A stretch of 64,000 nucleotides of DNA from a virus (lineage: Duplodnaviria > Caudoviricetes): IMG/VR virus record IMGVR_UViG_3300027333_000001; one strand, 5' to 3'. How positions within the stretch are numbered: the stretch's first letter is position 1; each line of letters starts with the position of its first letter. The position numbers were made by a program, and so were the translations under genes. Shown in pieces: positions 18,896-60,907 of the stretch. Under the pieces are notes generated by a model that did not search any database, was not told the origin of the DNA, and saw only the letters and a list, made by a program, of their open reading frames with translations.

Positions 18896-19087
18896 TTAAT
18901 CTTTAACTTTGAGAGTGAAAACACCTTGTCCTGTGACAACATCAATCTCAACAAAGTGACTTAAAAGGTGTAGTGCATCAATCACTTCTTCATCATCAGA
19001 ATTGTTTTCAACAAAAGACAACAAGGTGTCTTCACAGATCAAAGTGTCCTTATCGAACATTTGAATAATGGTATTTTGACTAAGCAT
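18896..19087 (-). CDS. Small hypothetical protein
   Basis: ATG 19087 after AAAGGA, downstream of a conserved bipartite motif. Confidence 0.55.
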   Translation of the reverse strand: MLSQNTIIQMFDKDTLICEDTLLSFVENNSDDEEVIDALHLLSHFVEIDVVTGQGVFTLKVKD

Positions 19088-25770: not shown

Positions 25771-25812
25771 TTCAGCATTGATATAATATAAGTATCTCTG
25801 AAAGGATACTTT

Positions 25813-31843: not shown

Positions 31844-32116
31844 ATGTTTCGTAGATTACAAAACAATATTAGAAAAGCTAGTCCAATGGATGCTTATGCA
31901 CAGGTTTCTGATATTGCACAAGAAATTCAAGAATTAGTTGAGAATGGTTCTTCTCTTATTGAAAGAGAAGAGAAAGCTATTAGAAACGAAATGATTGAAA
32001 CACCAGCTATTCGTTCTTTAAAGAATCAAATTGATTCTGATTTATATGACATTTATCAATTGGCTAAGGCTTTAGAAAAAAAAGCTATCCTCATCCAAAA
32101 ATCTATGAAAGGTTAA
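31844..32116 (+). CDS. Small helical protein with basic RKAS leader
   Basis: MFRRLQNNIRKAS; AAAAGGA SD. Confidence 0.6.
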   Translation: MFRRLQNNIRKASPMDAYAQVSDIAQEIQELVENGSSLIEREEKAIRNEMIETPAIRSLKNQIDSDLYDIYQLAKALEKKAILIQKSMKG

Positions 32117-42381: not shown

Positions 42382-42732
42382 ATGAGTTTCAATCTAAATA
42401 GCATTTTGGTAAGCACTCTAATCTCTAAAGGAAACAAAGAAATCACTAATTACTTCTACAAGGTAATTGAGATCAATGGTGATATGATGACTGTGGTTGC
42501 AATTACATCTAAAATGGATAGAGCAACCTTTATAGGTAGAGATGGCAAAGTGAAATTTCATATGAATGGTCTTGAAACACCTTCTGAAAGATATCCACTT
42601 GAGTTAGAGCAACATCGTATCTTTACCATTCAGTATAAAGGAAAAAACACTACTATTAATGGTAGTAGAGTTAAGGTATGGGATGAACAACCTCTACCTT
42701 TTAAATTCAAAACTAAAACTTTCTGTTTCTAA
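42382..42732 (+). CDS. Small hypothetical protein (distant paralog of 48034-48336)
   Basis: Shared N.FY.VIEI.G...VV and V..WD..PL pattern. Confidence 0.55.
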   Translation: MSFNLNSILVSTLISKGNKEITNYFYKVIEINGDMMTVVAITSKMDRATFIGRDGKVKFHMNGLETPSERYPLELEQHRIFTIQYKGKNTTINGSRVKVWDEQPLPFKFKTKTFCF

Positions 42733-43444: not shown

Positions 43445-43846
43445 CTATACATATTTTTTTATTAAGTTTCCTATATCATCTAATGAAAAAGTTGCCTTGC
43501 CATCTATATACTCATCTTTTAAATCATAGATCTGAATTTCATAAATGTTCTGAAAATAATAATCATCACCTTCAATATTATCTTCTTCATATCTTTCTTC
43601 ACCATCTTCATACTTATCAAACATATCTACTGTTTCATGCACATATATTTGAATAGGATGATTAGGAAATTCTATATGATATGTAGGCATCATTTCTTGT
43701 TCATTGATTTCATCTCTCCACCAATCTTCAAGTCTTCCTTTATCACGGAGTTCTTCAAATGGTTCAGGATTTGCTACTAATGTCATAGCATAACTTAAAT
43801 TTAGGTTTAATAAAATCCATTCTATGGAATGTTTAAATTGCATCAT
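43445..43846 (-). CDS. Acidic hypothetical protein
   Basis: Up to 133 aa; start uncertain. Confidence 0.5.
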   Translation of the reverse strand: MMQFKHSIEWILLNLNLSYAMTLVANPEPFEELRDKGRLEDWWRDEINEQEMMPTYHIEFPNHPIQIYVHETVDMFDKYEDGEERYEEDNIEGDDYYFQNIYEIQIYDLKDEYIDGKATFSLDDIGNLIKKYV

Positions 43847-44394
43847 AGGATAATACTGTAAATCTTCCTTAGTTGGTCAAGTTCAGAATTTAATTCTCTT
43901 CTCTTTTGTGCATTTGCTCTACCTTTTGGTAAAGCATCTAATTCTTTAGTCAAGGTTTCAATCTTGACTAACAAGTCTTGCACTTTGCTTGGATCAGCTT
44001 TGTATTCTGCATATAATAATTCTTCCTGTGGTGTGAGTAAATTATATGCTCTATGCACAGCTCTAGGATCTTTACATAAAGACTTTCCTGCTTTAATAAG
44101 TTCCCATCGGTAATGCTCAAATTGATCTTGTGCTTTTTTTAGATTTTGAGTTGCTTGTGCAAATGCTTCTAACTTAGGAAGAAGTTCAGGTACTTCATTT
44201 TTACAAAGTTCTAAATCTTTTGTTGATACATAGAAAGAACCTAGATTTCTTCTTCTGAACCATGATCGATATTTATATCTAGCTTCGTCCCATTCAAAAT
44301 CTTCACAATCGAAGTTGTGTTGTCTACCACTACTATGTGGTTCAAGTAGAGTATAGACTACTGCTTCCTTTTTGGTAATACTTCTAATTGCCAT
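43843..44394 (-). CDS. Paralog array member A
   Basis: MAIRSITKKEAVVY...KIETLTKELDALPKG. Confidence 0.65.
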   Translation of the reverse strand: MAIRSITKKEAVVYTLLEPHSSGRQHNFDCEDFEWDEARYKYRSWFRRRNLGSFYVSTKDLELCKNEVPELLPKLEAFAQATQNLKKAQDQFEHYRWELIKAGKSLCKDPRAVHRAYNLLTPQEELLYAEYKADPSKVQDLLVKIETLTKELDALPKGRANAQKRRELNSELDQLRKIYSIIL

Positions 44395-44399
44395 TTATC

Positions 44400-44942
44400 T
44401 TATCCTTTTACAAAATTGTAAAGATCCTGTAATTGTGTAAGTTGTGCTTGTAAATCTTTTTTAGATTTGCCTTTTGGTACTGCATCAATTTCTTTAGTCA
44501 AGGTTTCAATCTTGTTTAACAAATCTGTCCTTTTAGCTGGATCAGCTTGATATTCTGCAATCATCTTTTCTTCTTCATCTGTGAGAACTTCATAAGCTAA
44601 GTGCATTTTAGCAGGATCTTTGATGTGTGTTTTGAGAGCATTAAGATACTGTTCTCTTACTCGATTGATTTCATCAATAGTATCTTTCATTAACTCAAGT
44701 TTATCATTTAGCTTGTTTGCTAAATCAAGGTATTCAGGAAATGAGTTTGCGACTTGTCTAGTATCTACAGTGAGACTCCAATTCTTACAGGAAACAGAAT
44801 AACGATTGAAAGAATAATGGTATTCATTGATTTTTCCCCAATCATACTTAAACCAATAGAATCCTTTTTCACGACCTTGTGTTTGATCTTCTAATAGCTG
44901 GTATGCTAATTCTTCTTTTTTAGAGATTTTTCTTTTTGCCAT
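44400..44942 (-). CDS. Paralog array member B
   Basis: MAKRKISKKEELAY...KIETLTKEIDAVPKG. Confidence 0.65.
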   Translation of the reverse strand: MAKRKISKKEELAYQLLEDQTQGREKGFYWFKYDWGKINEYHYSFNRYSVSCKNWSLTVDTRQVANSFPEYLDLANKLNDKLELMKDTIDEINRVREQYLNALKTHIKDPAKMHLAYEVLTDEEEKMIAEYQADPAKRTDLLNKIETLTKEIDAVPKGKSKKDLQAQLTQLQDLYNFVKG

Positions 44943-44944
44943 TT

Positions 44945-45523
44945 TTAAATTTCTCCTATGAGTTTGAGATTTTTTGTGATTTCTTCAAGTTCATCTTTTA
45001 CTGTTTTTCTTAAAGGTGCAGATGCACGATCTTTTGGTAGACCTTCAAGTTTTTCTTGTAATTCAATTGCACGAGCCTTAAGAGCATTGATTTTATCTGT
45101 ATTGCCTTTTAATTCATTACAAATAGCTTCTTCTTCATCTGACATGATAAGATATTCAGTTTCAAAATTAGCATTTGGATTGACAAAAGTCTTTTTAATA
45201 TCCTCAACAAATTTCTCTCTAAGAGAATCGAATGTATTAATGGCATTATCAGCAATTTCACATTGTTTAGCCATTTCTTCAAAAACTTCTTTGTATTCAG
45301 GCATAGCTTGTAAAAACTTAGCAAAGTCGCCATAATTTAGTTGATATGGCTTAATAAGTCTTGACCAAACTCTACGATAACCAAATGCACCTGAATAGGT
45401 TGAATACATTTGATACCAATCACCACTTTTGGTTCGATAACCATTTTTAGCACCACCTGTAATTTCTTCTAATACAGGATATGCAAGTTCTTCTTTTTTA
45501 GAGATTTTTCTCTTTGTAGCCAT
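44945..45523 (-). CDS. Paralog array member C
   Basis: MATKRKISKKEELAY...ELQEKLEGLPKD. Confidence 0.65.
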   Translation of the reverse strand: MATKRKISKKEELAYPVLEEITGGAKNGYRTKSGDWYQMYSTYSGAFGYRRVWSRLIKPYQLNYGDFAKFLQAMPEYKEVFEEMAKQCEIADNAINTFDSLREKFVEDIKKTFVNPNANFETEYLIMSDEEEAICNELKGNTDKINALKARAIELQEKLEGLPKDRASAPLRKTVKDELEEITKNLKLIGEI

Positions 45524-47293: not shown

Positions 47294-47605
47294 TTAAACA
47301 GTTTGTCTGGAGTGAATGAGATTTAGAATGTGAACATAACATTTATTGAAATGTTCTTTTGTATCAATGAAAGAAGGTCTTGGTAAATTACCACCTATGA
47401 GATAAATTTTATCTTGATCTTCCCATACTTCTAATTGAATTTCTGTGAACATATCAAATGCAATATAAATATAACACTTGCCATGTGTACCATAGAAAGC
47501 ACCATGTGCTTTTTCTGCTTGGTAAATGTTTAAGTTTGGATATTGAGTTTTGATTTGATTAATCAAAGCTGTTGTGATTGTTTTTGCTTTATATGATAAA
47601 GACAT
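47294..47605 (-). CDS. Small hypothetical protein
   Basis: 103 aa with AAAGGAAA SD. Confidence 0.55.
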   Translation of the reverse strand: MSLSYKAKTITTALINQIKTQYPNLNIYQAEKAHGAFYGTHGKCYIYIAFDMFTEIQLEVWEDQDKIYLIGGNLPRPSFIDTKEHFNKCYVHILNLIHSRQTV

Positions 47606-47979: not shown

Positions 47980-48011
47980 ATAAACACTTATGCTTAAAGA
48001 AAATTGCAAGT
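47980..48011 (-). promoter_or_regulatory. Bipartite motif copy ACTTGCAAT-N14-AGTGTTTAT
   Basis: Exact consensus. Confidence 0.65.
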
Positions 48012-48033
48012 TCAGAAAAAAAGGTTTTGATAG

Positions 48034-48336
48034 ATGACAATAAAGACAGGTGATATTCTCTTTGCTAGAAGTGATACTTATGATGGCAATACAAATAATC
48101 ACTTTTATGAAGTGATTGAGATCATAGGTAAAGCTATTTTAATAGTAGAGATGATAGGTGCATCTAATGTGCATATATATGAAAATAAGAAAGCTGGTAC
48201 AGAAATAGCAAATCCTGCATTTAGAACAGGATTTAAAAGTAGAATTAGATGGTATGGCAAGAGTGCAAAGATAGATGGTGTTTCTGCTGTCTTATGGGAT
48301 AAGACACCTCTTTATTATAGTTTCTATGATTGGTAA
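48034..48336 (+). CDS. Small hypothetical protein (distant paralog of 42382-42732)
   Basis: GDILF...NHFYEVIEIIG...WDKTPL. Confidence 0.55.
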   Translation: MTIKTGDILFARSDTYDGNTNNHFYEVIEIIGKAILIVEMIGASNVHIYENKKAGTEIANPAFRTGFKSRIRWYGKSAKIDGVSAVLWDKTPLYYSFYDW

Positions 48337-48342
48337 GAAAAT

Positions 48343-48918
48343 TTAATATCCAAGTTGGATTAATCTCTGATACCATTTAAGAAGTTCTTTGATTTCTTTA
48401 TATACTTCAACGAACTCATTATACTTATATCCTAATGGAGCATAATATTTTCTTAAAGCAGGTTCAACAAAAAAAGTTTGCTGAAGTTTTTCAAATTTAG
48501 GAAAACAATCTTCCATCTCTGTTATTCTTTCTTTAAGTTTTTTTACATCCGTGTCAAGACCATCATGATCGGCAATTCTACGAAAATATGATTTCTTAAG
48601 GAAACGATCTGGATCAGCATGATCAACAATTAAAGTTTGAAATAAAACCATTTTCTTCCACATCATCTTATGAAATCTTGCCATTTCAGATTCTAGATCT
48701 CTATTTTTTTTGACGATAGAATTTAATTTATCAAGCATAATCATTCTTTTATCTTCAGGAATTTGAGAATAAGCGAAAATGAAATCGCTTTCTGTCATTT
48801 TTCTAAGTAGAGTATCTAAAGTCCATTGATTATGCTTGGCTGTGTTAGCTATGGCATCGAGATGAGAAGTGACCCAATTATAACCATTAGGATCAATATT
48901 AGTAAGATCAGGTTTCAT
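48343..48918 (-). CDS. Hypothetical protein, WYxRLIxLGY paralog family
   Basis: MKPDLTNIDP...FLKKSYFRRIADH...WYQRLIQLGY. Confidence 0.65.
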   Translation of the reverse strand: MKPDLTNIDPNGYNWVTSHLDAIANTAKHNQWTLDTLLRKMTESDFIFAYSQIPEDKRMIMLDKLNSIVKKNRDLESEMARFHKMMWKKMVLFQTLIVDHADPDRFLKKSYFRRIADHDGLDTDVKKLKERITEMEDCFPKFEKLQQTFFVEPALRKYYAPLGYKYNEFVEVYKEIKELLKWYQRLIQLGY

Positions 48919-49032
48919 TTGCATATCCTTTTTTGTCTTTCTAAAAAAGGATATATATAAATCAAATATTAATACTTATTTGATATAAATTTGGTTTGTA
49001 GAAATTTCAAACAAAAAAAGGATGGTCGAAAA

Positions 49033-49572
49033 ATGATTAGTTCTAAGATCGCTTCACTTGAAGCAAGAATCGCTAGATTAGAATCTAGTTTAAAAAATAA
49101 GACAGCTTCATCTTCTGAATGGGAAGATCCAAATTATTTAATTATGCACATTCAAGAATTTGCAAGTGATCATGTTTCACCTGCTTGGATGAAAAAATGG
49201 TGGACAAAAGAAGTGCCTGCATCTATGAAAAATAATTTTTCTGTCGCAGTAGAGATGATGAAAACATATCCAAGTATGTTGCAATACTTTAGTGAAAGTA
49301 TCCAAAACAATGTCAAATTAGGAAAATGGATGACTTCATCTGTTTATGGAAAACCTGCTAATTTTAAATATCTTGGTGAAGAATTAAAAAATGATTATGG
49401 TTTTGTTCTTTATCTTTTAAAAAGACTTCCTAGAAAAGACCACGATAAGATTCTTTCTTTTGCAGGAAATGGTTTAAAGGCAGAAATGGCTCGTATCGAA
49501 AACCTACCTTATCGCCAACAAGAAGAAGAAAAAGAAAATGCTCTTAATAGAATTCAGGCATTATTAAGATAA
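49033..49572 (+). CDS. Protein with shared ASLEARIARLESSLKNKTAS leader
   Basis: ATG 49033 after AAAGGA; leader shared with 49975. Confidence 0.65.
   Translation: MISSKIASLEARIARLESSLKNKTASSSEWEDPNYLIMHIQEFASDHVSPAWMKKWWTKEVPASMKNNFSVAVEMMKTYPSMLQYFSESIQNNVKLGKWMTSSVYGKPANFKYLGEELKNDYGFVLYLLKRLPRKDHDKILSFAGNGLKAEMARIENLPYRQQEEEKENALNRIQALLR
49072..49106 (+). repeat. 35-nt exact repeat (copy 1) within the shared leader
   Basis: GCTAGATTAGAATCTAGTTTAAAAAATAAGACAGC, identical at 50014-50048. Confidence 0.9.
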
Positions 49573-49901
49573 GATTTAATCCATTCATGTTCTGTACCTA
49601 GACCACAACAATATTTACTATCTTCTAAAGTCCATTGAGTTCTAGATTTGCCTCTTTTAGATTTAAGTGCTTTCTCAGCTTTCATAGCAATAGAACGATT
49701 TGGATAAGTACCATATAATGCTTTAGGTACCCATGGTCTATATTTAGATGTGTATTTAGCACCACCTTGTATTTCACCATTATGCTGTCTTAATCTTCTT
49801 TGATAATCAGTAGTGCAACCTACATAATAAAAGCCTTCAAGTTCTTTACCTGTCTTGCTATATCTTTTTTGTTGGGATTGGATAACATAAACATACCACA
49901 T
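49554..49901 (-). CDS. Small GIY-YIG nuclease (SLX1/UPF0213-like)
   Basis: WYVYV, YYVGCTTDYQRRLRQHNGEIQGGAKYT..RPW, AMKAEKALK. Confidence 0.85.
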   Translation of the reverse strand: MWYVYVIQSQQKRYSKTGKELEGFYYVGCTTDYQRRLRQHNGEIQGGAKYTSKYRPWVPKALYGTYPNRSIAMKAEKALKSKRGKSRTQWTLEDSKYCCGLGTEHEWIKSYLNNA

Positions 49902-49974
49902 TTTTTAATGCTCCTTTCAATAGTGTTTTTATATCTTATCTTTTTATATAACATTTTCTTAAAGGATAAACATA

Positions 49975-50421
49975 ATGTTTAATTCTAAATTAGCTTCTCT
50001 TGAAGCTCGTATTGCTAGATTAGAATCTAGTTTAAAAAATAAGACAGCCACAGGTTGGAGTCCACAATCGGGTGCACCTGCTACTGCCAAAGATATTTTA
50101 TCTTTGATGAGTAAATTGTTTGATCAACAATATTCTTCTCAACCTGAAAATGTAAAGTATCTTTCTAAGACAGTAGCTACAGGTACATATTCAGTAGATT
50201 TTTCAGGTGAAAAAGAACCTGATGCTGGTAATTTTATGGATATTGACTTTAAGTTAGAAATTGAAGAACCATTTGCACAGTTAACTTTCTTTGTAGGTGG
50301 TAGTCGTGTAAGCACGATGGACATTCCTTTACTCAGCACTAAAGCAATTATTCATGAATTGTATTATGTAGATGGGAAATTAAGAAAGATTTATGAAAAA
50401 TGGATGTATGGTGATTATTAA
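49975..50421 (+). CDS. Protein with shared ASLEARIARLESSLKNKTA leader
   Basis: Leader as in 49033; the body is unrelated. Confidence 0.65.
   Translation: MFNSKLASLEARIARLESSLKNKTATGWSPQSGAPATAKDILSLMSKLFDQQYSSQPENVKYLSKTVATGTYSVDFSGEKEPDAGNFMDIDFKLEIEEPFAQLTFFVGGSRVSTMDIPLLSTKAIIHELYYVDGKLRKIYEKWMYGDY
50014..50048 (+). repeat. 35-nt exact repeat (copy 2) within the shared leader
   Basis: Identical to 49072-49106. Confidence 0.9.
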
Positions 50422-50446
50422 ACCAATTTAAAAATAAGGATTAGTT

Positions 50447-50887
50447 ATGTTAAGACAAAGACTTTCAAAAGTACAAAATAAAATGTCTGCGAAATGGCAA
50501 CCTGCAGGTATCGAAATACTTATTGACCTTTTTGGTGATATTCATTGGGTGCCTAAAGATGATGTGTTTTTCTCTATTACAAGAGATCCTGTTGTAATTA
50601 GAGATAATGCAGGTAAACAACGAACAATAGAAGATAAAGGAACACTCTCTGTTGTAACATGGAGGAAAGGTGTTTTTAATACTGTCAAAAGTTTCCCTTA
50701 TCATATGAAAGAAGTTAATCCACTTACAAAGACACCTGATATGATTGAATTTACTATTTTTGCAGATACAGGCAAAAAGACTATGACTTTTCAATCAAAA
50801 CATTTATCTCATTTAGGTTTTGGAGGAACTTTATTTGAAAAGATCAGAAATTTCATCGATGAAATTTATGAATATAAAAGTTTATAA
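50447..50887 (+). CDS. Hypothetical protein with basic leader
   Basis: MLRQRLSKVQNKMSA; AAGGA SD. Confidence 0.55.
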   Translation: MLRQRLSKVQNKMSAKWQPAGIEILIDLFGDIHWVPKDDVFFSITRDPVVIRDNAGKQRTIEDKGTLSVVTWRKGVFNTVKSFPYHMKEVNPLTKTPDMIEFTIFADTGKKTMTFQSKHLSHLGFGGTLFEKIRNFIDEIYEYKSL

Positions 50888-51262
50888 TTGTATCATTGCT
50901 CTAATTTAGATTTAGATGTTCTTATTCCACAAGTACATTATCTTATAGATAAACCTGTTGTCTTTGCATCTACACATAAAGAATTTGCTTTAACTTTTAT
51001 TAATAAATGGACAGATGCAGATTTTGATTTAAGTCGCTTTAATGATGATCCATTTACCTTTACTGAAAAACAGACAGGCAATTTGGATAATTTCTTTAAA
51101 GGTAAAACAGGATGGCTATATGTTTTAGATCCTAAAACATTTATTAAATTTAAAGACACGGAATATATAAGCTATGTTGAGCCTGTGATATTAGAAAAGA
51201 TAAAGATAGCAGATGCTTTAAGAGAACTAGAACAGTCAAAGATAATTTTATTAAAAATGTAA
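50888..51262 (+). CDS. Hypothetical protein, possible H-Y-E type ADP-ribosyltransferase fold
   Basis: (L)YHCS...VFAS...GWLYVL...EYIS pattern; inference only. Confidence 0.4.
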   Translation: MYHCSNLDLDVLIPQVHYLIDKPVVFASTHKEFALTFINKWTDADFDLSRFNDDPFTFTEKQTGNLDNFFKGKTGWLYVLDPKTFIKFKDTEYISYVEPVILEKIKIADALRELEQSKIILLKM

Positions 51263-51320
51263 AAAGAGAAAAAGAAGATATAAGTGAAACTGCATTACTC
51301 TCATAAAGGAAAAAGAAAAA

Positions 51321-51899
51321 ATGCAGACACTACAATTCAAAGTAAAAAAAGATCGAGTATCTTTAGATGTCACAGGCAGTGTTTTAACACTTGGCTTTAA
51401 ATGTGGAAACTTTGCCATCACTATAAATAGACAAGGTAGTCTTGATATTATCAATAATCAAATTTGCTTGTCTTATGATGATCAAACATTATCATTTGAA
51501 GGATTAGGTGTAGAAAATGTATCTCTTACACCTAATGTTATTTCAACAGTAAAAGAACCTGTGATTAAGACAGTTAAGACAGTACCTAAGCCAAATCATT
51601 TAAGATATGCTTTTTCACCAGATAGATTACATCCATTGACAGCGAATGTATTAAAGGCTTGTTCTTTAGAACCTTTATCAAGAGATCAAATCTTTCAAAA
51701 GATTTTGGATCAAAATACCTATGCACAATTCATCTATATGGATAAGTATCGTAGAAGTTATGACTATTATAGACCTTTACTTTGGACACTAGAAAAAGTA
51801 GGTTTATTGTCTTGCAATTTTGAAGGTGGTCGTCAAGTACGAAACCATAAGTTTTCTACTACTAAAAAAGGCAAAGAATTTTTATCTTCTAATTTTTAA
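51321..51899 (+). CDS. Protein with C-terminal winged-helix domain
   Basis: LWTLEKVGLL...FSTTKKGKEFL wing pattern. Confidence 0.5.
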   Translation: MQTLQFKVKKDRVSLDVTGSVLTLGFKCGNFAITINRQGSLDIINNQICLSYDDQTLSFEGLGVENVSLTPNVISTVKEPVIKTVKTVPKPNHLRYAFSPDRLHPLTANVLKACSLEPLSRDQIFQKILDQNTYAQFIYMDKYRRSYDYYRPLLWTLEKVGLLSCNFEGGRQVRNHKFSTTKKGKEFLSSNF

Positions 51900-51965
51900 A
51901 TGAACCTAAACTCTAAGTGTTTTTGATTCACCTAAAAAACCTTCACTATAAAGGATATTTTCTTT

Positions 51966-52286
51966 ATGTTTACTATGGACAATTTTATAAATGGCTTTGG
52001 TTCTTTCTCTGCACATTGTGCTATCACTGATGTAGTAACCTATGGTGGAAACCATGAATATAGATGGGATTATGGTGTAACTGAATGGAATATTACAGCA
52101 AATCTATTCTACAGAGATTTAATATTAGATTTAGAATGCACTAACAACAGAATCAGGATTACAAATATCAATACACAATTGTTTTTATCTTTTGGGGAAA
52201 ATCAAAACCTTGAAAGTTTTCTTAACAGGATTGAAAAAGAACTTGAGCATAAATATCAAGAATACAAATATGGTTCTTTGATTTAA
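51966..52286 (+). CDS. Small hypothetical protein
   Basis: 106 aa with AAAGGA SD. Confidence 0.55.
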   Translation: MFTMDNFINGFGSFSAHCAITDVVTYGGNHEYRWDYGVTEWNITANLFYRDLILDLECTNNRIRITNINTQLFLSFGENQNLESFLNRIEKELEHKYQEYKYGSLI

Positions 52287-52289
52287 TTT

Positions 52290-52727
52290 ATGGATGCTTA
52301 TACTATCTTAATGCTAATGGTAGCATTACTTTTCCCACAAGATACTTTTTTTCATCCTGTTAGACATTGTGGTTTATATGCTTTAGCTGAAGCGATTAGC
52401 TTAGAAAAAGATAAAGAAATCCAAATTGTTTTAATAGCTGGAGCTTTGGCTGAAACAGACTTTGGTACTGATTTTTTAAAGTATCAAAATAGTAGTTTCT
52501 ATGTGCCTAACTCAAAAACAAAATTTTGTGGTGTTTATAATCATCTGTGGAGGATTAAAGAAAAGTGTAATAATGAAGATTATGCTTTACACACAAAATG
52601 GTTGGCGAGAAGCATTGATAAATATGGTCTAGCTAAAAGATATATGTCTTACATACAGAAAGTAAAAGAAACAATAAGAAAAACTGCAAAGAAAAGTTTT
52701 TATAAAGAATATAAAAAATGTGATTGA
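52290..52727 (+). CDS. Membrane-anchored or secreted hypothetical protein
   Basis: Hydrophobic N-terminus; ALAETDFG faintly resembles a transglycosylase motif. Confidence 0.45.
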   Translation: MDAYTILMLMVALLFPQDTFFHPVRHCGLYALAEAISLEKDKEIQIVLIAGALAETDFGTDFLKYQNSSFYVPNSKTKFCGVYNHLWRIKEKCNNEDYALHTKWLARSIDKYGLAKRYMSYIQKVKETIRKTAKKSFYKEYKKCD

Positions 52728-52759
52728 ACTTGCAATAAACTTAAATCCCAAGTGTTATA
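52728..52759 (+). promoter_or_regulatory. Bipartite motif copy ACTTGCAAT-N14-AGTGTTATA
   Basis: Second box is one T shorter; precedes ORF 52825. Confidence 0.55.
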
Positions 52760-52824
52760 GCTTATGTAGTTGATTGATCTAAAAAACAATCTTTCTTTTT
52801 TCCCTTTATAAAGGACTTCTGATT

Positions 52825-53193
52825 ATGAATGCTGTTCATATCCTCAATGTTATCTCTAGTATTGTTCCATCACTTTGTGTTTTCGCACAAACAGCACCTA
52901 TTATGGTAGATAATGTATATTTACCATATGTAGATGATGAAAGATACTTAAATGCAACTATCGATTATCCATATGGTTCATCTGTGTATCACTTCCAATT
53001 AAGTCTTTATGTTGATAGTGAAATTATTAACATTGAACTTGATATGAATCATTCATGGATTAATGGAAAGATACTTGATCAAAATTTTTCACATAGTGAA
53101 AACTATGTAGATGTGATTAAGACAGTGATTGAAAAGAAAATCGATGATGAGATTAAAATCGAATGTGAAAAAGAATGGTCTTATGAAGATTAA
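52825..53193 (+). CDS. Small hypothetical protein
   Basis: 122 aa with AAAGGA SD. Confidence 0.55.
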   Translation: MNAVHILNVISSIVPSLCVFAQTAPIMVDNVYLPYVDDERYLNATIDYPYGSSVYHFQLSLYVDSEIINIELDMNHSWINGKILDQNFSHSENYVDVIKTVIEKKIDDEIKIECEKEWSYED

Positions 53194-53228
53194 TAAACCT
53201 AAACCTAACAAATAAGGAAAAACAAAAA

Positions 53229-53561
53229 ATGACAAACTTAATAAATTGCACACCACATGATGTAAAGATTATTGTAAATGATCAAGAAATCACTTTAAAA
53301 CCATCAGGTACTTTACCAAGAGTACTACAAGATAAAGTAGCAGGTATTTCACTATCTTTTGGTGGTTTATCCATACCTACTGTTAATACAAAAATAGGTG
53401 GCATTATAGGTTTACCTGATGCAGTAGAAAACACTTATTTAATTGTATCTGTGTTTGTCTTAGAAGAAGGTAAAAAGGCAGGTAGAACTGATCTACTTGC
53501 ACCTGATACCTTAAGAGATAGTCAAGGCAATATTATAGGCTGTAAAGGTTTCTTATTTTAA
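53229..53561 (+). CDS. Conserved phage hypothetical protein (INxTPH...RD..GNIIGC family)
   Basis: Motif pattern recalled from widespread phage hypotheticals. Confidence 0.6.
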   Translation: MTNLINCTPHDVKIIVNDQEITLKPSGTLPRVLQDKVAGISLSFGGLSIPTVNTKIGGIIGLPDAVENTYLIVSVFVLEEGKKAGRTDLLAPDTLRDSQGNIIGCKGFLF

Positions 53562-53830
53562 AGTGCTTTCTTAAGCATGGATTCAGCTTGATCTAAAAGC
53601 ATAGATGCCTTTTCCATAAGATCATGTGCTTGACTAACAAATTTATTAGATGTCAATGGTTCAGCATATAGATCACCTAAAGCATCAGGTGATGTCATAA
53701 TCAGATGATTATCTTCAAGAATTTGTTGGATTTTTTGAAAATCTTGAATAGTGGCTTTAATTTCTTGAATTGCCATTGGTGAGAGTTCATTTGACATAGG
53801 ATTAAATAAAGAACTTCTTCTTCTTAACAT
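53558..53830 (-). CDS. Small helical protein with basic RRRSS leader
   Basis: MLRRRSS; helical body. Confidence 0.55.
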   Translation of the reverse strand: MLRRRSSLFNPMSNELSPMAIQEIKATIQDFQKIQQILEDNHLIMTSPDALGDLYAEPLTSNKFVSQAHDLMEKASMLLDQAESMLKKAL

Positions 53831-53938
53831 GATGAGATACCTTTTTTTGATAGTTTAAGTTTCTATTAAGATATAATTATAAAATGATTATTATAAGATA
53901 AGTATCTCTATTATGAATAGACAGGCAGGTATCAAAAA

Positions 53939-54688
53939 ATGGAAGAGTTTATATGCAGTATCTGTGGTGAAAAACCACAAACAGAAGAAATCGCAATGAA
54001 ATGGAATCAAGACCTAAAAAAAGGTTGGTGTTTATGTACAGGATGTAGAGATAAATATCGTGGTGAAAAAACACATAAAAACAAAATAGAGAAAGATAGC
54101 TATAACTATTTCACTACTACCATAAGACAATTGCTGGTTAGACACGGATTTAGTTTAAGTGAAAGAACAGTAGGTAGTTTGAAATTAGAGAATTATGTAA
54201 AATGGAATTTGCGAGCAACAGCACCAAATGAGTATTTTATTAAAATCAATTTAGATATGGAAAAAAGAGATGTGAAAGACTACATCTATTTTTGGACAAT
54301 GAAAACTTATGATCCTGAAGGCAATTATGTTAAGCAGGCTGAATGTGATAAACCTAATGTGCCAATGGTCAAGGATTTCTTAAATGACTTTTTAAAGCAT
54401 ATAGGCAGTAATCCATATCAGTATTTCAGATCTACTTTAAAATCTGTATTGTCTAAACACAGGTTAGTAATCTTAGAGTCCTCCGAAACAGATGATTTAT
54501 CTACATATAAAGGAATGTTTACGAATAACCAATACAGGTGGGAAGCACAGGTAGAGAAAGATTTTAAATGGAATGTAAAACTTATTGCCTTAAAAGGTAA
54601 AGCATTAGTAGTAGAAGAACATGATGGTGGAACTTTTGCCATATCACCATTGAAAGAGTTTTTTAATAAAATAGCTAGGAAATATTAA
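53939..54688 (+). CDS. Hypothetical protein with N-terminal zinc-binding Cys cluster
   Basis: CSIC...CLCTGC. Confidence 0.55.
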   Translation: MEEFICSICGEKPQTEEIAMKWNQDLKKGWCLCTGCRDKYRGEKTHKNKIEKDSYNYFTTTIRQLLVRHGFSLSERTVGSLKLENYVKWNLRATAPNEYFIKINLDMEKRDVKDYIYFWTMKTYDPEGNYVKQAECDKPNVPMVKDFLNDFLKHIGSNPYQYFRSTLKSVLSKHRLVILESSETDDLSTYKGMFTNNQYRWEAQVEKDFKWNVKLIALKGKALVVEEHDGGTFAISPLKEFFNKIARKY

Positions 54689-55235
54689 ATTTGTTTTTAA
54701 TAGATGCTAAACGAAGTCTTAAAGAAGATCGTTTACAGGTTTTTGGTCTAGGATTTTGCTCGCCATCAAAATAAGTAGTCACAATAATTGCTTTACCTTT
54801 TTTCACTTTAAAAGCTAAAAATAAGTTTCCTAATTTTCTATCAATAAAATTGATATCTGCACCTATGCGAATTGCAGATTCCCAAGTAAGATACTGTGCT
54901 GAATTTTGTGATTTCTCATTATAGTATTGCTTTACAAAGTTTCTAAGAGCAATACGAATATCGCCTGTCGTAACACCTCTTAAATCCATACGATATTGAG
55001 CATGAGAAGATAATTCAATTTCACTAATAAGTTTATTATGTTCTAAAGGTTTTTCCACTATTCTTGGATAAACTACACTTGCCTCTAAATTATCTAAATC
55101 TTCAGCATTTTCTACCTTATCAATAAGGATATTTTCAATATATCCTTCATTCAATTTATCATCTACTCTTTTCACTACTTTGCAGATACCACCCGGGTAT
55201 CCCAACATAGGATCTAAATCAGATACTCTTTTCAT
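54675..55235 (-). CDS. Protein with possible DUF4258/BECR RNase-like domain
   Basis: SSHAQYRMDLRGVT...AIIVTTY; C-terminal RLRLAS. Confidence 0.45.
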   Translation of the reverse strand: MKRVSDLDPMLGYPGGICKVVKRVDDKLNEGYIENILIDKVENAEDLDNLEASVVYPRIVEKPLEHNKLISEIELSSHAQYRMDLRGVTTGDIRIALRNFVKQYYNEKSQNSAQYLTWESAIRIGADINFIDRKLGNLFLAFKVKKGKAIIVTTYFDGEQNPRPKTCKRSSLRLRLASIKNKFNIS

Positions 55236-55290
55236 TTTATGTTATCCTTTCTTTGTATCATATATACTTAAAATTATTTAAGGATTAAAA

Positions 55291-55533
55291 ATGCCTAAAG
55301 TTTTGTTTGTTGTCCAAAATGAAGAAGTGATTTCTATTTTAGAAGAATCACTTCACATGATCTTACCTGAATCGTATGACTATATTTTATGGTTGCCTAA
55401 AGAAACATGGTTTGGCAACCATGTTAGATTTATGGTAGATCGAAAAGTAGAAAGAATTTCAGATCTCAATCCTAAGAAATATAAATATGACAAAAACGAA
55501 TGGGATGTCTTTAAAGAAAAAATAAGACAATGA
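55291..55533 (+). CDS. Small hypothetical protein
   Basis: 80 aa with AAGGA SD. Confidence 0.5.
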   Translation: MPKVLFVVQNEEVISILEESLHMILPESYDYILWLPKETWFGNHVRFMVDRKVERISDLNPKKYKYDKNEWDVFKEKIRQ

Positions 55534-58500
55534 CTATTCTTCTATAATAAACTTTTCACCTGTCAAAGATTCAAGTGTTCGGATCATCTTTTCCATATTG
55601 ATGCGAATAACTTTACCTGTCTTTTTATTAAAAGAATAATATTCCCATTCACCTTCTTCATTATGTGATGATAGTCTTGTATTATTGCCACCACTATCTT
55701 GTACATAAATTTCAGTATCTGAAACATCTACTTTGGCATAAACATGAGCATGATCTGCTACTGTAGATGGATGATTAATTTGTTTTTTAAGCTGGATATA
55801 TCCATTAGATACTATATTGCCTGTATCATTATCTACACTTAAAACTTGTGTAGGATTAACCAATGCACTTGCATCTGTTATACTTGTAGGTGTAGCTAAA
55901 CTAGCATAAGACCATGAAGAATTATCCAAAACTAAAGTATATGGATTATCCTCACTAGAAAAACCACCACCATAAGGCAAGACATCATTATATGTAAATC
56001 CTGTGGCAAATTGATTTGTGGAAAGATAAATCTGAAAGTCTTTATTTGGTGATGTGTTATCATTATCTGTTCTAATAGTAAAATAGTAAGTAGAGTTCTG
56101 ATCTAGCACAAGACTAGCATTTGCTACTGTACTGCCATTTGTATATGCACTCGCTTGACTTGCTATATATCTTTTATATCCCTGTGTAGTATCTTCCTCT
56201 AAATAATCTGTACCACTATCCTGCAATAAAACTAAATCCACTGATTCTCTTGTAACACCACCATCGGATGTTTTAAAAATATAAAAATACTCTAAATCAT
56301 TTCTTGAAGTAGAGTTATATTTAACAAAGACATATGCAGTTTGAGTAGAAACATTTAGACCATCATAAACAGAAATATTGCCACCATAGGATTTTATATT
56401 GCCTGTGAACTCATTATTAGCATTTAATAAAGGAATGTTTGCAGTATTGGATAAATCAGTAGATGCCAATTTACTATTAACAAAAGCACTACCATTATAT
56501 CTTAATGTTTGTCCTGTCACTTGAGAACTAACTGTAACATCTGATAAGTCATTTAAGACCATTGCAGATAATTCAGTTTGCACATAGGCTGTAGTTGCCA
56601 CTTTGGTTGAATTATCATTTGCAGATTGAGTAGTAGCTGTTGCACTTGAACCTAATGCAATCGCACCATTTAAAGTAACTGTACTATTCACTACAAGTTT
56701 ATTGACTACTGCATAAGTATCTACATCTAATCTTGTTAATGTTGTTAAGTCAGATGCTTTATCAAAATTAGCTAAAGATGAAGTTCTAGTATCATAGATA
56801 TATGTACTTGCTGTTAAAGAATTACTTGTAGGTACATTCGCAATAATTTCATAAGTAGTTTCTACAACATTCGTATCCATACCACTGCCAGCTAAATCTA
56901 CATAGCTTAATCCTAAACCATCATTGCTATCTGATACAGCTAAAGCAAAATCAGGATTGCCATCTTGTACTCTATTCCAAGATGAAATATAATAAGTTAA
57001 GTTTGGATCTCTTTTAAATGAAGCATTAGGTGTGTCATTCGGATTTGTATATTGAGAAAAGCCATTTGCTTTATATACAGAATAATCAAAAGTATATGTA
57101 GTTGCACCACTCATAAAGCTAGTGATTTTTTGAAGATAATGTGTGCCACTGTCTTGTATTAAAGTTAAAGGAATGACTTGTCTTGTTTCTCCACCATCAG
57201 GACTTGTAAAGACATAAAAGAAATCATCCATACCACTTCTATTATCAAATTTCACATAAATATAGGCATCATTTAAAGATGCAGGTGTGAACATATCTAT
57301 GGTATCAGATACATTATCTACTTTAAATTTATCTTCACCTGCTACTGATTCCACTAATAAATAATCACCATTAAAGGTATTATCGCCTGTGAATGTATTA
57401 TTATTTGCAAGATAAACATCACCACCTCCACCACCTGCATTATCATTAATCCAAACACTACCATTATATTTTAAAACTTGACCTGTGGATAAAGTACCTA
57501 ATGTTACATCTGTCAATCCATCTAAGGTTGTCGATACACTACCTGCTACTGTATAGATTTGATTATCTAATCTGTCTAAAGCATCTGTTAAACTTGTAGC
57601 TGAACTTAAATAGTTTGTTGAAATGCCACCACCTGTGACCCATACACCACTAGCATCAACGAAACCACCAATAGAACTTTCAATATTATTAACTTCAGTT
57701 TGGGAAGATGCACCTATATTAGTTCTAGCAGTAGCTGGATCATTTAAACCACTTAAATTATCTACTTTATAAACAATAGATGAAGTATCAAACATATCTG
57801 AAGATGATAGTCTTGTGTTTAAAAAGACTGCTCCATTATATCTTAATATTTGACCTGCCACCAAAGCACCTGCATCAATAGAAACATCAGATAAATCATC
57901 TAAAGATGCCACTGATCCTGATGAAGTGCCATTAATCCATTTACTTGTACTTGTATCATATTTTAAGACTTGATTATTTGATGGTGTGCCTGTAATCACT
58001 ACATCGGATAAATCATCTAAGATCATAGCTGATAATTCTGTTTGCACAAATTCTGTTGTAGCAATTTTAGTAGTATTATCATTTGCACTAGCTGTAGGTG
58101 CAGTAGGTGTTCCTGTTAATGCAGGACTTGCTAAAGGTGCATAAGTTCCTGAAATGCCACTTACCTGAGTAGCTGTTATTCCTGTTATTAAAGATCCATC
58201 AATCGCAGGTATTTGAGCAGATCCATTTAATTGCACAATGTTATTTGCAGATGTACCTGCATTATATGTAGATGCACTTCCCAAACCTAAATTTGATCTT
58301 GCTGTACTTGTGCTAGAAAGACCACTTAAATTATCTGCTTTTAATAAGAAATCTGTTTTATGACTTCCATCCAGCAAATCAGCATCAAGACTTGAACCAC
58401 TGCCATCTACTGTTAATAACTTTGTTAGTACATCGGATGCAGTGTAGTCAGTAGTTTTAACAAGATCAGAACCATCGCTTAAATTACTAGAACTCAAAGC

Positions 58501-58911
58501 ACTATTGATCCAAATGCTACCATTATATTTTAAAATTTGATTAGGACTTGGACTAGAAATCGTAACATCTGTTAATCCATTTAAAGTAGTAGCACCTGAT
58601 CCTCCACCACCAATTTCTTCAATTAGATTTTGAACGAAAGCAGTAGTAGCAAGTTTAGTAGAATTATCAATAGATGCTTGTGTATCAGCAGTAGCAGAAG
58701 ATCCAAGATAAATAGTAGGATTAGAAATGACAGTCAAATCTGTTTGTAGGATAAGACCTTTTTTAAAAGTGATAACATCATTAAAGGTTTTCTCACCATT
58801 GATATTTTGATCACCTGAAAGAGTAACAAAAGAAGATTGTTTTCTATTAAAGGTAAATTCGATTTGGGAAAGTCTAGTTTCAAGACTTGCTAATCTTTGA
58901 GTAATTTCCAT
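55534..58911 (-). CDS. Tail fibre / receptor-binding-like protein
   Basis: LxDLSDV and DNSTKxATTA repeats, two copies of an internal globular domain, C-terminal HNEEGEWEYYS...RINMEKMIR domain typical of fibre ends. Confidence 0.75.
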   Translation of the reverse strand: MEITQRLASLETRLSQIEFTFNRKQSSFVTLSGDQNINGEKTFNDVITFKKGLILQTDLTVISNPTIYLGSSATADTQASIDNSTKLATTAFVQNLIEEIGGGGSGATTLNGLTDVTISSPSPNQILKYNGSIWINSALSSSNLSDGSDLVKTTDYTASDVLTKLLTVDGSGSSLDADLLDGSHKTDFLLKADNLSGLSSTSTARSNLGLGSASTYNAGTSANNIVQLNGSAQIPAIDGSLITGITATQVSGISGTYAPLASPALTGTPTAPTASANDNTTKIATTEFVQTELSAMILDDLSDVVITGTPSNNQVLKYDTSTSKWINGTSSGSVASLDDLSDVSIDAGALVAGQILRYNGAVFLNTRLSSSDMFDTSSIVYKVDNLSGLNDPATARTNIGASSQTEVNNIESSIGGFVDASGVWVTGGGISTNYLSSATSLTDALDRLDNQIYTVAGSVSTTLDGLTDVTLGTLSTGQVLKYNGSVWINDNAGGGGGDVYLANNNTFTGDNTFNGDYLLVESVAGEDKFKVDNVSDTIDMFTPASLNDAYIYVKFDNRSGMDDFFYVFTSPDGGETRQVIPLTLIQDSGTHYLQKITSFMSGATTYTFDYSVYKANGFSQYTNPNDTPNASFKRDPNLTYYISSWNRVQDGNPDFALAVSDSNDGLGLSYVDLAGSGMDTNVVETTYEIIANVPTSNSLTASTYIYDTRTSSLANFDKASDLTTLTRLDVDTYAVVNKLVVNSTVTLNGAIALGSSATATTQSANDNSTKVATTAYVQTELSAMVLNDLSDVTVSSQVTGQTLRYNGSAFVNSKLASTDLSNTANIPLLNANNEFTGNIKSYGGNISVYDGLNVSTQTAYVFVKYNSTSRNDLEYFYIFKTSDGGVTRESVDLVLLQDSGTDYLEEDTTQGYKRYIASQASAYTNGSTVANASLVLDQNSTYYFTIRTDNDNTSPNKDFQIYLSTNQFATGFTYNDVLPYGGGFSSEDNPYTLVLDNSSWSYASLATPTSITDASALVNPTQVLSVDNDTGNIVSNGYIQLKKQINHPSTVADHAHVYAKVDVSDTEIYVQDSGGNNTRLSSHNEEGEWEYYSFNKKTGKVIRINMEKMIRTLESLTGEKFIIEE

Positions 58912-58929: not shown

Positions 58930-59634
58930 TTAAACCATAGTTTGAGCAAATGCTTGCCAAGTGATATTAGAGAAAGTACCTGTTCTACCTACAGCAGTGT
59001 CAGTAGTTAAAGTAGCATTAGATGTAGCTAAAAGTAATAATCTTGAACCTGCTATATTAGCTAAAGGTGCAGTAGGTCTAGTGAAATTAGAGGTATAGAC
59101 AGCAGTACCTTTTACCCATCTGAAATTAGTCATCCAACCACCAAAAGAACCACCTACTGAAGGTGTAGTTTCATTACCGATAACTAAATTATTTGTAGTG
59201 TTATTGAAATTGTAATTGTTTACTAAAGTAGAACCAAATTGAGTGCCATCTTTAAAAACTTTAATATTATTAGAGGCATCTCTTGTGATTGCGAAATGCA
59301 CCCACTTGTTTTTATAGTCAGTTGTATTCATAGCAGAGCCAAAACCATTAGCACCACCATTAATCCAAAAGTAGAATTGACCACCTTCAATACTAACACC
59401 CATAAATGTAGATGGATAATTTCCGATAGCAAATATTCTAGGGAAAGAATTACTATCTGTTTGATATTGAAACCATTCGATAGTAAACTCACCTGATTGA
59501 GGATACATATTACTATCTTGACCATAGCTGATATTTGAGTTAGATGCACCTGTAAATTTCATAGTACCTACAAGAGCAAGGTCAAATGTTGATGTAGAAG
59601 AAGGCTTTAAAATGCCATGTGTTGCTTTTAACAT
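58930..59634 (-). CDS. LamG/concanavalin-like tail-associated protein
   Basis: MLKATHGI; FTIEWF, KWVHFAITR, FGGWMTNFRWVKGTAVYTSNF. Confidence 0.75.
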   Translation of the reverse strand: MLKATHGILKPSSTSTFDLALVGTMKFTGASNSNISYGQDSNMYPQSGEFTIEWFQYQTDSNSFPRIFAIGNYPSTFMGVSIEGGQFYFWINGGANGFGSAMNTTDYKNKWVHFAITRDASNNIKVFKDGTQFGSTLVNNYNFNNTTNNLVIGNETTPSVGGSFGGWMTNFRWVKGTAVYTSNFTRPTAPLANIAGSRLLLLATSNATLTTDTAVGRTGTFSNITWQAFAQTMV

Positions 59635-60897: not shown

Positions 60898-60907
60898 AAA
60901 AAACCTA

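What the first reader, a model, noticed from the sequence alone, without database searches (positions are those of the whole stretch)
49033..50060. A portable N-terminal leader (ASLEARIARLESSLKNKTAS) fused to unrelated proteins, also on a tail fibre
Seen: ORFs 49033 and 49975 share a 26-aa leader, with 35 nt identical (49072-49106 = 50014-50048). Similarity stops abruptly after KTA and the bodies are unrelated. The 1125-aa fibre-like ORF (start 58911) begins RLASLETRLSQIEFTFNRKQSS, the same amphipathic helix ending in the same register at K-x-[AS]-S. Known: T4 internal proteins carry a short N-terminal capsid-targeting sequence removed by prohead protease gp21, and phiKZ head proteins are cut by gp175 at S/A/G-x-E. 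Inference: this is a modular virion-targeting and/or protease-cleaved tag with a basic (K/R-x-A-S) specificity, which the phage recombines onto new cargo.
Basis: partly seen in the sequence, partly recalled or inferred. Interest (0 to 1): 0.8.

Follow-up and report, generated by a model that had tools for sequence, protein, structure and literature searches.

The report
Portable coiled-coil leader on phage proteins
An uncultured freshwater jumbo phage and its relatives put the same 20-residue N-terminal helix, built like a three-stranded coiled-coil "peg", plus its own promoter, in front of dozens of otherwise dissimilar small proteins; it is a real, mobile protein tag, but whether it loads them into the virus particle is still untested.

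Summary
ORF A (49033-49572) and ORF B (49975-50421) share 22 of 27 N-terminal residues and 35 identical bases, and then diverge completely.

A profile of the leader finds 43 protein clusters among 1.84 billion representatives. Every match starts at residue 1 of a 30-261 aa protein. The bodies fall into about 30 sequence-unrelated groups.

Codons vary freely while the peptide stays fixed, so selection acts on the peptide. The leader travels with a conserved promoter and ribosome-binding cassette. I found one recombinant joined inside the 35-base block and one leader "scar" at a gene's 3' end.

The helix carries two tandem trimerisation motifs of the [K/R]-h-x-x-h-E type. In the whole window only ORF A, ORF B and the fibre N-terminus have this tandem motif. 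A flexible basic linker ending in A-S follows.

Leader genes use a promoter type shared with the endolysin operon and a fibre gene, so it is probably late. Leaderless homologues of the same bodies use a sigma-70-like promoter.

My best reading is a portable trimerising or docking tag. Cleavage and capsid targeting remain untested, and the fibre parallel argues against an internal-capsid signal. This scan has noted comparable leaders in other jumbo phages before.

The parts
48962..49032 (+). Class-2 promoter-like cassette and Shine-Dalgarno (AAAGGAT) in front of ORF A
   Evidence: A nucleotide HMM built from 30 distinct leader-gene upstream regions hits 48962-49014 (E 6e-4). The alignment of upstream regions is and the composite regex.
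49033..49110 (+). Leader of ORF A (aa 1-26, MISSKIASLEARIARLESSLKNKTAS): coiled-coil core plus basic linker
49033..49572 (+). ORF A, 179 aa: leader plus DUF4116 body
   Evidence: Pfam PF13475, 3.2e-8. Homologues are P0006, P0044 and L012.
49072..49106 (+). 35-nt block identical to 50014-50048 and site of the recombinant junction seen in contig L025
49554..49901 (-). Small GIY-YIG nuclease gene (115 aa, catalytic domain only) between the two leader genes. It is syntenic in relatives.
   Evidence: Pfam PF01541, 8e-12. The same arrangement is seen in L008/L009, L010, L012, L026, L029 and L030.
49909..49974 (+). Class-2 promoter-like cassette and Shine-Dalgarno in front of ORF B
   Evidence: nhmmer hit 49909-49958, E 1e-3.
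49975..50052 (+). Leader of ORF B (aa 1-26, MFNSKLASLEARIARLESSLKNKTAT)
49975..50421 (+). ORF B, 148 aa: leader, flexible linker, then an alpha-beta5-alpha body
   Evidence: AF2 model: helix 3-23, residues 21-26 pLDDT below 50, body pLDDT 70-93. Family members are P0001-5 and P0043.
58831..58911 (-). Leader-like N-terminus of the 1125-aa tail fibre (two R-h-x-x-h-E motifs, then F-N-R-K-Q-S-S)
   Evidence: It is 94-97% conserved in four close relatives.
55534..58911 (-). Tail-fibre gene
   Evidence: PHROG tail-fibre families, down to 3e-28.
47294..47605 (-). Leaderless homologue (68% identity) of the body of leader protein P0010, behind a class-1 (TTGCAA-N17-AAGTGTTT) promoter
48034..48336 (+). 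Leaderless homologue of the body of leader proteins P0012, P0028 and P0039
   Evidence: BLASTP 1e-8. hhalign 91% and 78%.
42382..42732 (+). Leaderless paralogue of 48034, behind a class-1 promoter
18896..19087 (-). Leaderless homologue (about 55% identity) of the body of leader proteins P0011 and P0020, behind a class-1 promoter
31844..32116 (+). Class-2-promoter gene starting MFRRLQNNIRKAS, possibly a truncated leader, lying 6 nt upstream of the endolysin gene 32123-32554

Best explanation
The leader is a portable protein tag kept by selection on the peptide. Residues 5-20 form a short heptad helix with two tandem trimerisation motifs (K5-L-A-S-L-E10 and R12-I-A-R-L-E17, of the Arg(g)-h(a)-x-x-h(d)-Glu(e) type). 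A flexible basic linker follows (h-x-B-B-x-A-S), and the variable body starts after it.

The tag is encoded in a roughly 150-nt cassette (a phage-specific promoter, AAAGGAT ribosome site and leader). Homologous recombination moves and exchanges this cassette among small accessory genes in hypervariable slots of a clade of roughly 350-kb freshwater jumbo phages.

Shown: the portability, the N-terminal position, the peptide-level constraint, the cassette, and traces of recombination.

Inferred: the tag makes its cargo a parallel trimer. Because even the outward-facing small residues (A7, S8, A11, A14) are invariant, the tag probably also docks the cargo onto one conserved phage partner late in infection. 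The tail fibre starts with the same kind of N-terminus. I rate a trimerising or docking peg as more likely than a T4-style propeptide that a head protease removes.
For: Spread and position:
- A profile of 12 leaders against 1.84e9 representatives gives 43 clusters at E<1e-3. Every match starts at residue 1-3 of a 30-261 aa protein.
- The bodies form 30-36 groups with no BLAST or hhalign link.

Peptide-level selection:
- 27 distinct leader DNAs give pS 0.56 against pN 0.11. Arg12 is CGT in 17 and AGA in 10, and Leu16 is TTA or CTN. The amino-acid regex used to pick these leaders biases pN downward.
- Invariant residues are K5, A7, S8, L9, E10, R12 and L16. A11, A14, R15 and E17 are nearly invariant.

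Trimerisation motif:
- The motif definition and its role in short coiled coils come from PMC3653964.
- The tandem motif is unique in the window to ORF A, ORF B and the fibre N-terminus.
- AF2 gives a free helix followed by a low-confidence linker in two different families.

Cassette and recombination:
- The upstream 65 nt is conserved across 30 distinct leader genes.
- Contig L025 has ORF B's upstream region and 5' leader, then switches inside the 35-nt block to a 100%-identical ORF A body.
- The P0010 gene ends in a 25-nt copy (22/25) of leader codons 12-20.
- One slot is empty in the window, holds P0010 in L001, and holds P0012 in L005.

Gain and loss, and promoter class:
- Four window genes are leaderless homologues of leader-borne bodies.
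- One 350,574-bp scaffold holds both a leaderless copy and a leader-bearing copy of one body.
- The leader promoter type also precedes the gene just upstream of the endolysin, and a 1557-aa fibre-like gene.
- 0 of 41 leader genes have the sigma-70-like class-1 promoter that precedes three of the leaderless homologues.
Against: - No measurement of oligomeric state exists. [quoted passage not shown]
- With Leu at most a and d positions and only about 2.5 heptads, stability and stoichiometry are uncertain.
- The leader helix has only about 55-60 pLDDT in the monomer models.
- No partner has been identified.
- The late timing of the class-2 promoter rests on two co-occurrences, and on a regex written after seeing the data.
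- The fibre likeness is statistically weak as homology (E 0.05-0.3) and was found only in close relatives.
- Two of the 'unrelated' bodies have the same predicted alpha-beta5-alpha arrangement. Part of the diversity may therefore be one fast-evolving family rather than fusions.
Confidence: 0.5

Rival explanations
1. The leader is a capsid-targeting propeptide like the T4 CTS. It binds the prohead core or scaffold, carries the cargo into the head, and is cut off by the prohead protease at basic-x-A|S. The cargo is then injected with the DNA.
For: - It is the same logic as the T4 CTS: a short N-terminal tag on unrelated proteins in plastic loci (PMC5694885).
- The linker is conserved in kind. 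54 of 63 distinct tails have basic-x(0-2)-[AS][STAG] ending 7-11 residues after E17, and it is predicted to be disordered.
- The promoter is probably late.
- The same body exists as an early-promoter leaderless copy and a late-promoter leader copy. These could be two routes to having the protein present at the start of infection.
- P0029 joins two bodies through KKSKTAAS, the linker part alone.
- Four of five other class-2 genes start with a short basic peptide ending in [AS]-S.
Against: - No head protease, capsid protein or cleavage site of this phage could be examined.
- The leader does not end in [LI]-x-E (T4). Its only S/A/G-x-E site (S8-L9-E10) lies inside the helix.
- A tail fibre, assembled outside the prohead, carries the same kind of N-terminus.
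- A strict trimerisation motif is not a feature of known CTS peptides.
Confidence: 0.2
2. The leader is only an oligomerisation handle for cytoplasmic effectors. Trimerising small binding domains raises their avidity for host or rival targets. There is no docking partner and no link to the virion.
For: - The trimerisation motif is present.
- The bodies are small, orphan and fast-evolving, and they lie among replication and accessory genes.
- Leaderless homologues show that the bodies fold and presumably act without the tag.
Against: - The solvent-facing b, c and f positions (A7, S8, A11, A14, R15) are as invariant as the core. A self-contained coiled coil does not need that.
- The tag is strictly coupled to one promoter class, shared with lysis and fibre genes.
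Confidence: 0.2
3. These are not fusions to unrelated cargo. They are one hyper-divergent protein family whose conserved N-terminal helix is the only part still recognisable.
For: - The AF2 models of the ORF B family and the P0027 family have the same helix, five strands, helix order.
- Both models retrieve largely the same PDB entries: FP domain 4l9c_A (Z 7.3 and 8.0), DR_1245 4h5b_B (6.5 and 7.0), and several type III secretion chaperones.
- Most carriers are 115-170 aa.
Against: - ORF A's body is DUF4116, which is helical.
- The P0012/48034 group and the P0011/18896 group did not link to the ORF B family or to each other by BLAST or hhalign, but neither was modelled, so a different fold is only inferred from their sequences.
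- Leaderless homologues and a leader swap on an identical body show that the leader is gained, lost and exchanged.
- The Z scores are in the range of common arrangements.
Confidence: 0.1
4. The shared sequence is a DNA-level by-product with no peptide function, for example a recombination or homing site linked to the neighbouring GIY-YIG gene.
For: - There is a 35-nt exact repeat.
- A GIY-YIG gene lies between leader genes in several relatives.
- A recombinant junction lies inside the repeat.
Against: - Synonymous sites are near saturation while the peptide is invariant.
- Many leader genes have no GIY-YIG gene beside them.
- The nuclease has no DNA-binding domain of the homing type.
Confidence: 0.02

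Closest known systems
Phage T4 capsid-targeting sequence (CTS) of IPI, IPII, IPIII and Alt, removed by prohead protease gp21 (Mullaney and Black 1996, as summarised in PMC5694885)
   Same: Both are short N-terminal tags shared by otherwise unrelated, non-essential, fast-changing proteins. Both are modular and transferable. Expression is probably late here too.
   Different: The T4 tag is 10-20 residues, ends in the protease motif [LI]-x-E, and is not a heptad coiled coil. Here the tag is a double trimerisation motif with a basic A-S linker. A tail fibre has a similar N-terminus. Neither packaging nor cleavage is shown.
[quoted passage not shown] 2005 as cited in PMC3653964)
   Same: R12-I-A-R-L-E17 matches the motif exactly in the g-a-d-e register. 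K5-L-A-S-L-E10 is a Lys variant one heptad earlier. The total length is about that of the designed short trimers.
   Different: The oligomeric state was not measured. The outward-facing positions are also invariant, which the motif alone does not explain.
PeSL mobile regulatory cassettes of T4-type phages (Arbiol et al. 2010, PMC2839356)
   Same: Both are small conserved promoter-bearing cassettes that flank variable orphan genes in hyperplastic regions and act as recombination points for gene shuffling.
   Different: PeSLs are sigma-70-like early promoters plus terminator stem-loops, and they are non-coding. Here the cassette has another promoter type and extends into the coding region as a protein tag. 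No enrichment of terminator-like hairpins was seen.
Conserved N-terminal anchor domains of phage tail fibres and tailspikes with exchangeable distal parts
   Same: Both pair a conserved N-terminus with a variable remainder. The window's own 1125-aa fibre starts with the same tandem motif and a similar linker.
   Different: The carriers here are 90-260 aa, and most have no fibre-like repeats or receptor-binding folds. Attachment to the particle is not shown.

Membership tests
T4-type capsid-targeting propeptide (CTS) | The same short N-terminal peptide sits on otherwise unrelated proteins of one phage | tested here: met
   Two carriers occur in the window and three in 44 kb of the 350-kb relative. 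There are 43 clusters overall, all N-terminal.
T4-type capsid-targeting propeptide (CTS) | The tag ends at the cleavage motif of the phage's own prohead protease, and the same motif marks capsid and scaffold maturation sites | not testable with these tools
   No head genes lie in the window or in the loci that could be fetched. The whole 350-kb record could not be searched. The T4 motif [LI]-x-E is not at the leader's end. The end is basic-x-A-S.
T4-type capsid-targeting propeptide (CTS) | Carriers are present in virions with the tag removed | not testable with these tools
   This needs proteomics.
T4-type capsid-targeting propeptide (CTS) | Late expression together with head genes | tested here: inconclusive
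   The leader promoter type also precedes the endolysin operon and a 1557-aa fibre-like gene. No expression data were available.
R-hxxhE trimeric short coiled coil | Arg(g)-h(a)-x-x-h(d)-Glu(e) in a heptad frame with hydrophobic a and d positions | tested here: met
   R12-[IL]-A-R-L-E17 is invariant or nearly so. The a/d positions are L6, L9, I13, L16 and L20.
R-hxxhE trimeric short coiled coil | Forms a parallel trimer | not testable with these tools
   This needs AUC, SEC-MALS or a structure.
PeSL-like mobile regulatory cassette | A conserved promoter cassette at the borders of variable genes, with recombination between copies | tested here: met
   cassette; recombinant; 3' scar; variable slot.
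PeSL-like mobile regulatory cassette | Sigma-70-like early promoter plus terminator stem-loop | tested here: not met
   The leader cassette has a different motif (AATAWT-N4-TTTAT-N10-TAATAGA). The sigma-70-like TTGCAA-N17 class is found at 0 of 41 leader genes. Terminator-like hairpins are not enriched.
Tail-fibre N-terminal anchor | Homologous N-terminal domain shared with a bona fide fibre | tested here: inconclusive
   HMM E is 0.05-0.3. The tandem motif and linker register are shared and unique in the window.

The most novel reading that the evidence does not exclude
The leader is a plug-in trimeric peg that docks a fast-evolving arsenal of small proteins, many with a type III-secretion-chaperone-like alpha-beta5-alpha fold, onto or into the virion. 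The socket logic would be the same as the tail fibre's N-terminus uses. The phage could then deliver one effector by two routes: a leaderless copy transcribed early from a host-type promoter, and a leader-tagged copy made late and carried in the particle to the next cell.
Probability: 0.25. Interest if true: 0.8.

Novelty: new variant of a known kind. Interest (0 to 1): 0.6.

Why it matters
Jumbo phages carry hundreds of orphan genes, and how they organise and deliver accessory proteins is largely unknown. A short, sequence-defined, transferable tag that marks a whole class of such proteins gives a handle for finding them in metagenomes. It also gives a testable hypothesis: trimerisation, docking or packaging of tagged proteins.

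If the tag works as a self-contained trimerising or virion-loading peg of about 25 residues, it would be a compact tool for displaying or packaging foreign proteins, as the T4 CTS has been.

The pairing of leaderless copies on a host-type promoter with leader-tagged copies on a probably late promoter suggests a rule for how phages re-deploy the same domain at different times.

Tried and rejected
- tblastn of ORF A and blastn of 48001-56000 against 50,697 cultured-phage records gave no match.
- IMG/VR scans with ORF A, ORF B and the leader alignment confirmed no relative.
- No whole genome is held for the window. The 350-kb relative could not be searched as a record. The number of carriers per genome and the head module therefore remain unknown.
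- Complex prediction with three copies of ORF B returned 'no answer' (score 0.00, controls not run). It counts neither for nor against trimerisation.
- Foldseek of the ORF B model against PDB and BFVD gave nothing at E<=0.001.
- VIA-align gave only middling Z values of 5-9.
- The ESM Atlas feature search on the leader gave no usable hit.
- Pfam and PHROG scans of 41 carriers gave only DUF4116 and weak coiled-coil hits.
- tblastn of the fibre's first 80 residues against cultured phages matched only the region after the helix, weakly.
- I considered a Tat or Sec signal and rejected it, because there is no hydrophobic segment.
- I considered the L27/Prp-type F-A|S site and rejected it, because there is no Phe-Phe.
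- I considered phiKZ-type S/A/G-x-E cleavage. The only such site lies inside the helix.
Nothing supports it beyond synteny.

Full report
**What is there.** The window is about 30% GC DNA from an uncultured jumbo phage. It encodes ribonucleotide reductase, a RecD-like helicase, RecA, DNA methylases, an M15 endolysin and several tail-fibre genes. It is nearly identical in gene content to parts of a 350,574-bp ENA metagenome scaffold. Earlier notes of this scan on the same genome also call it a roughly 350-kb freshwater jumbo phage.

ORF A (ATG 49033, 179 aa) and ORF B (ATG 49975, 148 aa) share 22 of their first 27 residues (E 3e-11) and nothing else. The 35-nt identity 49072-49106 = 50014-50048 is exact and maximal. 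ORF A's body is DUF4116, and ORF B's body has no family. A small GIY-YIG gene lies between them on the other strand.

**How widespread the leader is.** Word-indexed searches found the leader on other bodies. A profile of twelve leaders (A2) run against 1.84 billion cluster representatives gave 43 clusters at E<1e-3. Every match begins at residue 1-3 of a protein of 30-261 aa, and no long protein appeared.

With further carriers from JGI contigs, the bodies form 30-36 groups that neither BLAST nor hhalign connects. Leader genes often lie two or three in a row, and in different slots in different relatives. One slot is empty in the window (25770-25813), holds P0010 in L001, and holds P0012 plus two genes in L005.

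**The peptide is what is selected.** Among 27 distinct leader DNAs, pooled pS is 0.56 and pN is 0.11 for codons 5-17. Arg12 is CGT in 17 and AGA in 10, and Leu16 is TTA or CTN. The regex used to collect them biases pN downward, but the HMM-collected proteins show the same invariance. K5, A7, S8, L9, E10, R12 and L16 are invariant. A11, A14, R15 and E17 are nearly so.

**What the peptide looks like.**
- The hydrophobic residues L6, L9, I13, L16 and L20 follow a 3-4 spacing.
- R12-I-A-R-L-E17 is an exact instance of the trimerisation motif Arg(g)-h(a)-x-x-h(d)-Glu(e). That motif specifies parallel three-stranded topology in short coiled coils (PMC3653964).
- K5-L-A-S-L-E10 is a Lys variant one heptad earlier.
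- The fibre starts with R-L-A-S-L-E and R-L-S-Q-I-E in the same spacing, followed by F-N-R-K-Q-S-S. The leader has L-K-N-K-T-A-S at the matching place.
- The tandem pattern occurs only in these three places in all six-frame ORFs of the window (shuffle mean 0.003).
- As plain homology the fibre match is weak (E 0.05-0.3). Only close relatives of the fibre were found.
- After E17 comes a linker that is variable in sequence but constant in kind. In 54 of 63 distinct tails, a basic residue followed within two positions by [AS][STAG] ends 7-11 residues on.
- AF2 models of two families show a free helix, a linker below pLDDT 50, and then a folded body.

**A mobile cassette.** The 65 nt upstream are conserved across 30 distinct leader genes: AATAWT, four bases, TTTAT, about ten bases, TAATAGA-like, then AAAGGAT and ATG.

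Three observations show exchange and movement through the leader:
- Contig L025 carries ORF B's upstream region and 5' leader. Inside the 35-nt block it switches to a body 100% identical to ORF A's.
- The P0010 gene ends with an in-frame 25-nt copy (22/25) of leader codons 12-20.
- P0029 joins two bodies through the linker part alone.

This resembles the PeSL cassettes of T4-type phages (PMC2839356), except that here the cassette reaches into the coding region.

**Gain, loss and promoter class.** Four window genes are leaderless homologues of leader-borne bodies: 47294-47605, 18896-19087, 48034-48336 and its paralogue 42382-42732. Three of them sit behind a sigma-70-like motif, TTGCAA-N16-17-AAGTGTTT. 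That motif occurs seven times in the window and at 0 of 41 leader genes. The 350-kb scaffold holds both forms of one body.

The leader promoter type also precedes 31844, which lies 6 nt upstream of the endolysin gene. In L030 it precedes a 1557-aa collagen/CBM fibre-like gene. I infer that it is a late promoter. This is an inference from co-occurrence and from a regex written after inspection.

**Weighing the readings.**
- The coiled-coil reading explains the invariant K/R, hydrophobic and Glu positions, and it explains the likeness to a trimeric fibre.
- It does not explain the invariant small residues on the outer face, which point to a conserved partner.
- A T4-like capsid-targeting propeptide remains possible. 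The linker, the probably late promoter and the early/late duality all fit it.
- However, it could not be tested. The leader lacks known protease motifs at its end, and a fibre would not share an internal-capsid signal.
- Both modelled bodies have the same helix, five strands, helix order. They retrieve overlapping PDB sets: FP domains, DR_1245/YbjN-like proteins and type III secretion chaperones, at Z 5-9. Some of the 'unrelated' bodies may therefore be one fast-evolving fold class.
- ORF A's helical DUF4116 body is distinct, and the P0012-type and P0011-type bodies show no sequence link to the others. Leader swaps on identical bodies also occur.

**Context.** This scan has already noted shared N-terminal leaders on unrelated proteins in several other jumbo phages. 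The kind of thing is therefore recurrent. This one differs in being a trimerisation-motif helix with a basic A-S linker, and in having leaderless twins under another promoter class.

The complex prediction gave no verdict.

Noticed in passing
window, many sites (e.g. 47669-, 48009-, 19162-, 42303+, 40620-, 27234+, 4838-): There seem to be three promoter-like classes. Class 1 is TTGCAA-N16-17-AAGTGTTT(ATA), before small orphan genes. Class 2 is AATAWT-N4-TTTAT-N10-TAATAGA, before leader genes, the 31844/endolysin pair and a few others. Class 3 is TAATATAAG, before replication and recombination genes (recD-like, recA, rad50-like, mre11-like, methylase).
   Followed up: partly
window 31844, 29554, 46199, 53830(-), 10388: Genes with the class-2 promoter but no coiled-coil leader start with short basic peptides ending in [AS]-S: MFRRLQNNIRKAS, MRNQFLSRRAS, MFRRKNRVAS, MLRRRSS and MIKFANNNKTAS. 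They look like leaders that lost the helix. The KTAS of 10388 is kept in a 56%-identical homologue.
   Followed up: partly
window 49554-49901 (-): A 115-aa GIY-YIG protein with the catalytic domain only lies between leader genes here and in L008-L010, L012, L026, L029 and L030. In L014, L018, L019 and L024 it lies a few kb away, next to a roughly 1700-aa gene. Its role is unknown.
   Followed up: partly
window 25770-25813 versus L001 9819-10403 and L005 3250-5197: This is a hypervariable slot. It is empty in the window. It holds a 583-nt leader-gene cassette in one relative, and a different leader gene plus an N6/N4 methylase in another.
   Followed up: yes
L001 10365-10396: The leader gene P0010 ends with an in-frame partial copy of a leader (..IARMESSL, 22/25 nt). 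This looks like a scar of recombination between tandem leader genes.
   Followed up: yes
window 43843-45523 (-): Three tandem paralogues of 180-192 aa all start MA(K/T/I)R(K)IS/TKKE. Their function is unknown.
   Followed up: no
window 48343-48918 (-) and 28147-28713 (+): These are paralogous helical proteins of about 190 aa, both starting MKPDLTNIDP and both behind class-2-like promoters. The first is transcribed divergently from ORF A and stays next to it in L012, L029 and L030.
   Followed up: no
window 23401-24180 (-), 58930-59634 (-), 59635-60975 (-): LamG-type proteins all start MLKATHGI(I/L)K.... One copy lies far from the fibre operon, among replication-region genes, and is flanked by leader genes in relative L024.
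   Followed up: no
P0029 (261 aa, metagenome protein): This is a two-body leader protein. A P0024-like body and a P0027-like body are joined by KKSKTAAS, which is the linker part of a leader without its helix.
   Followed up: partly
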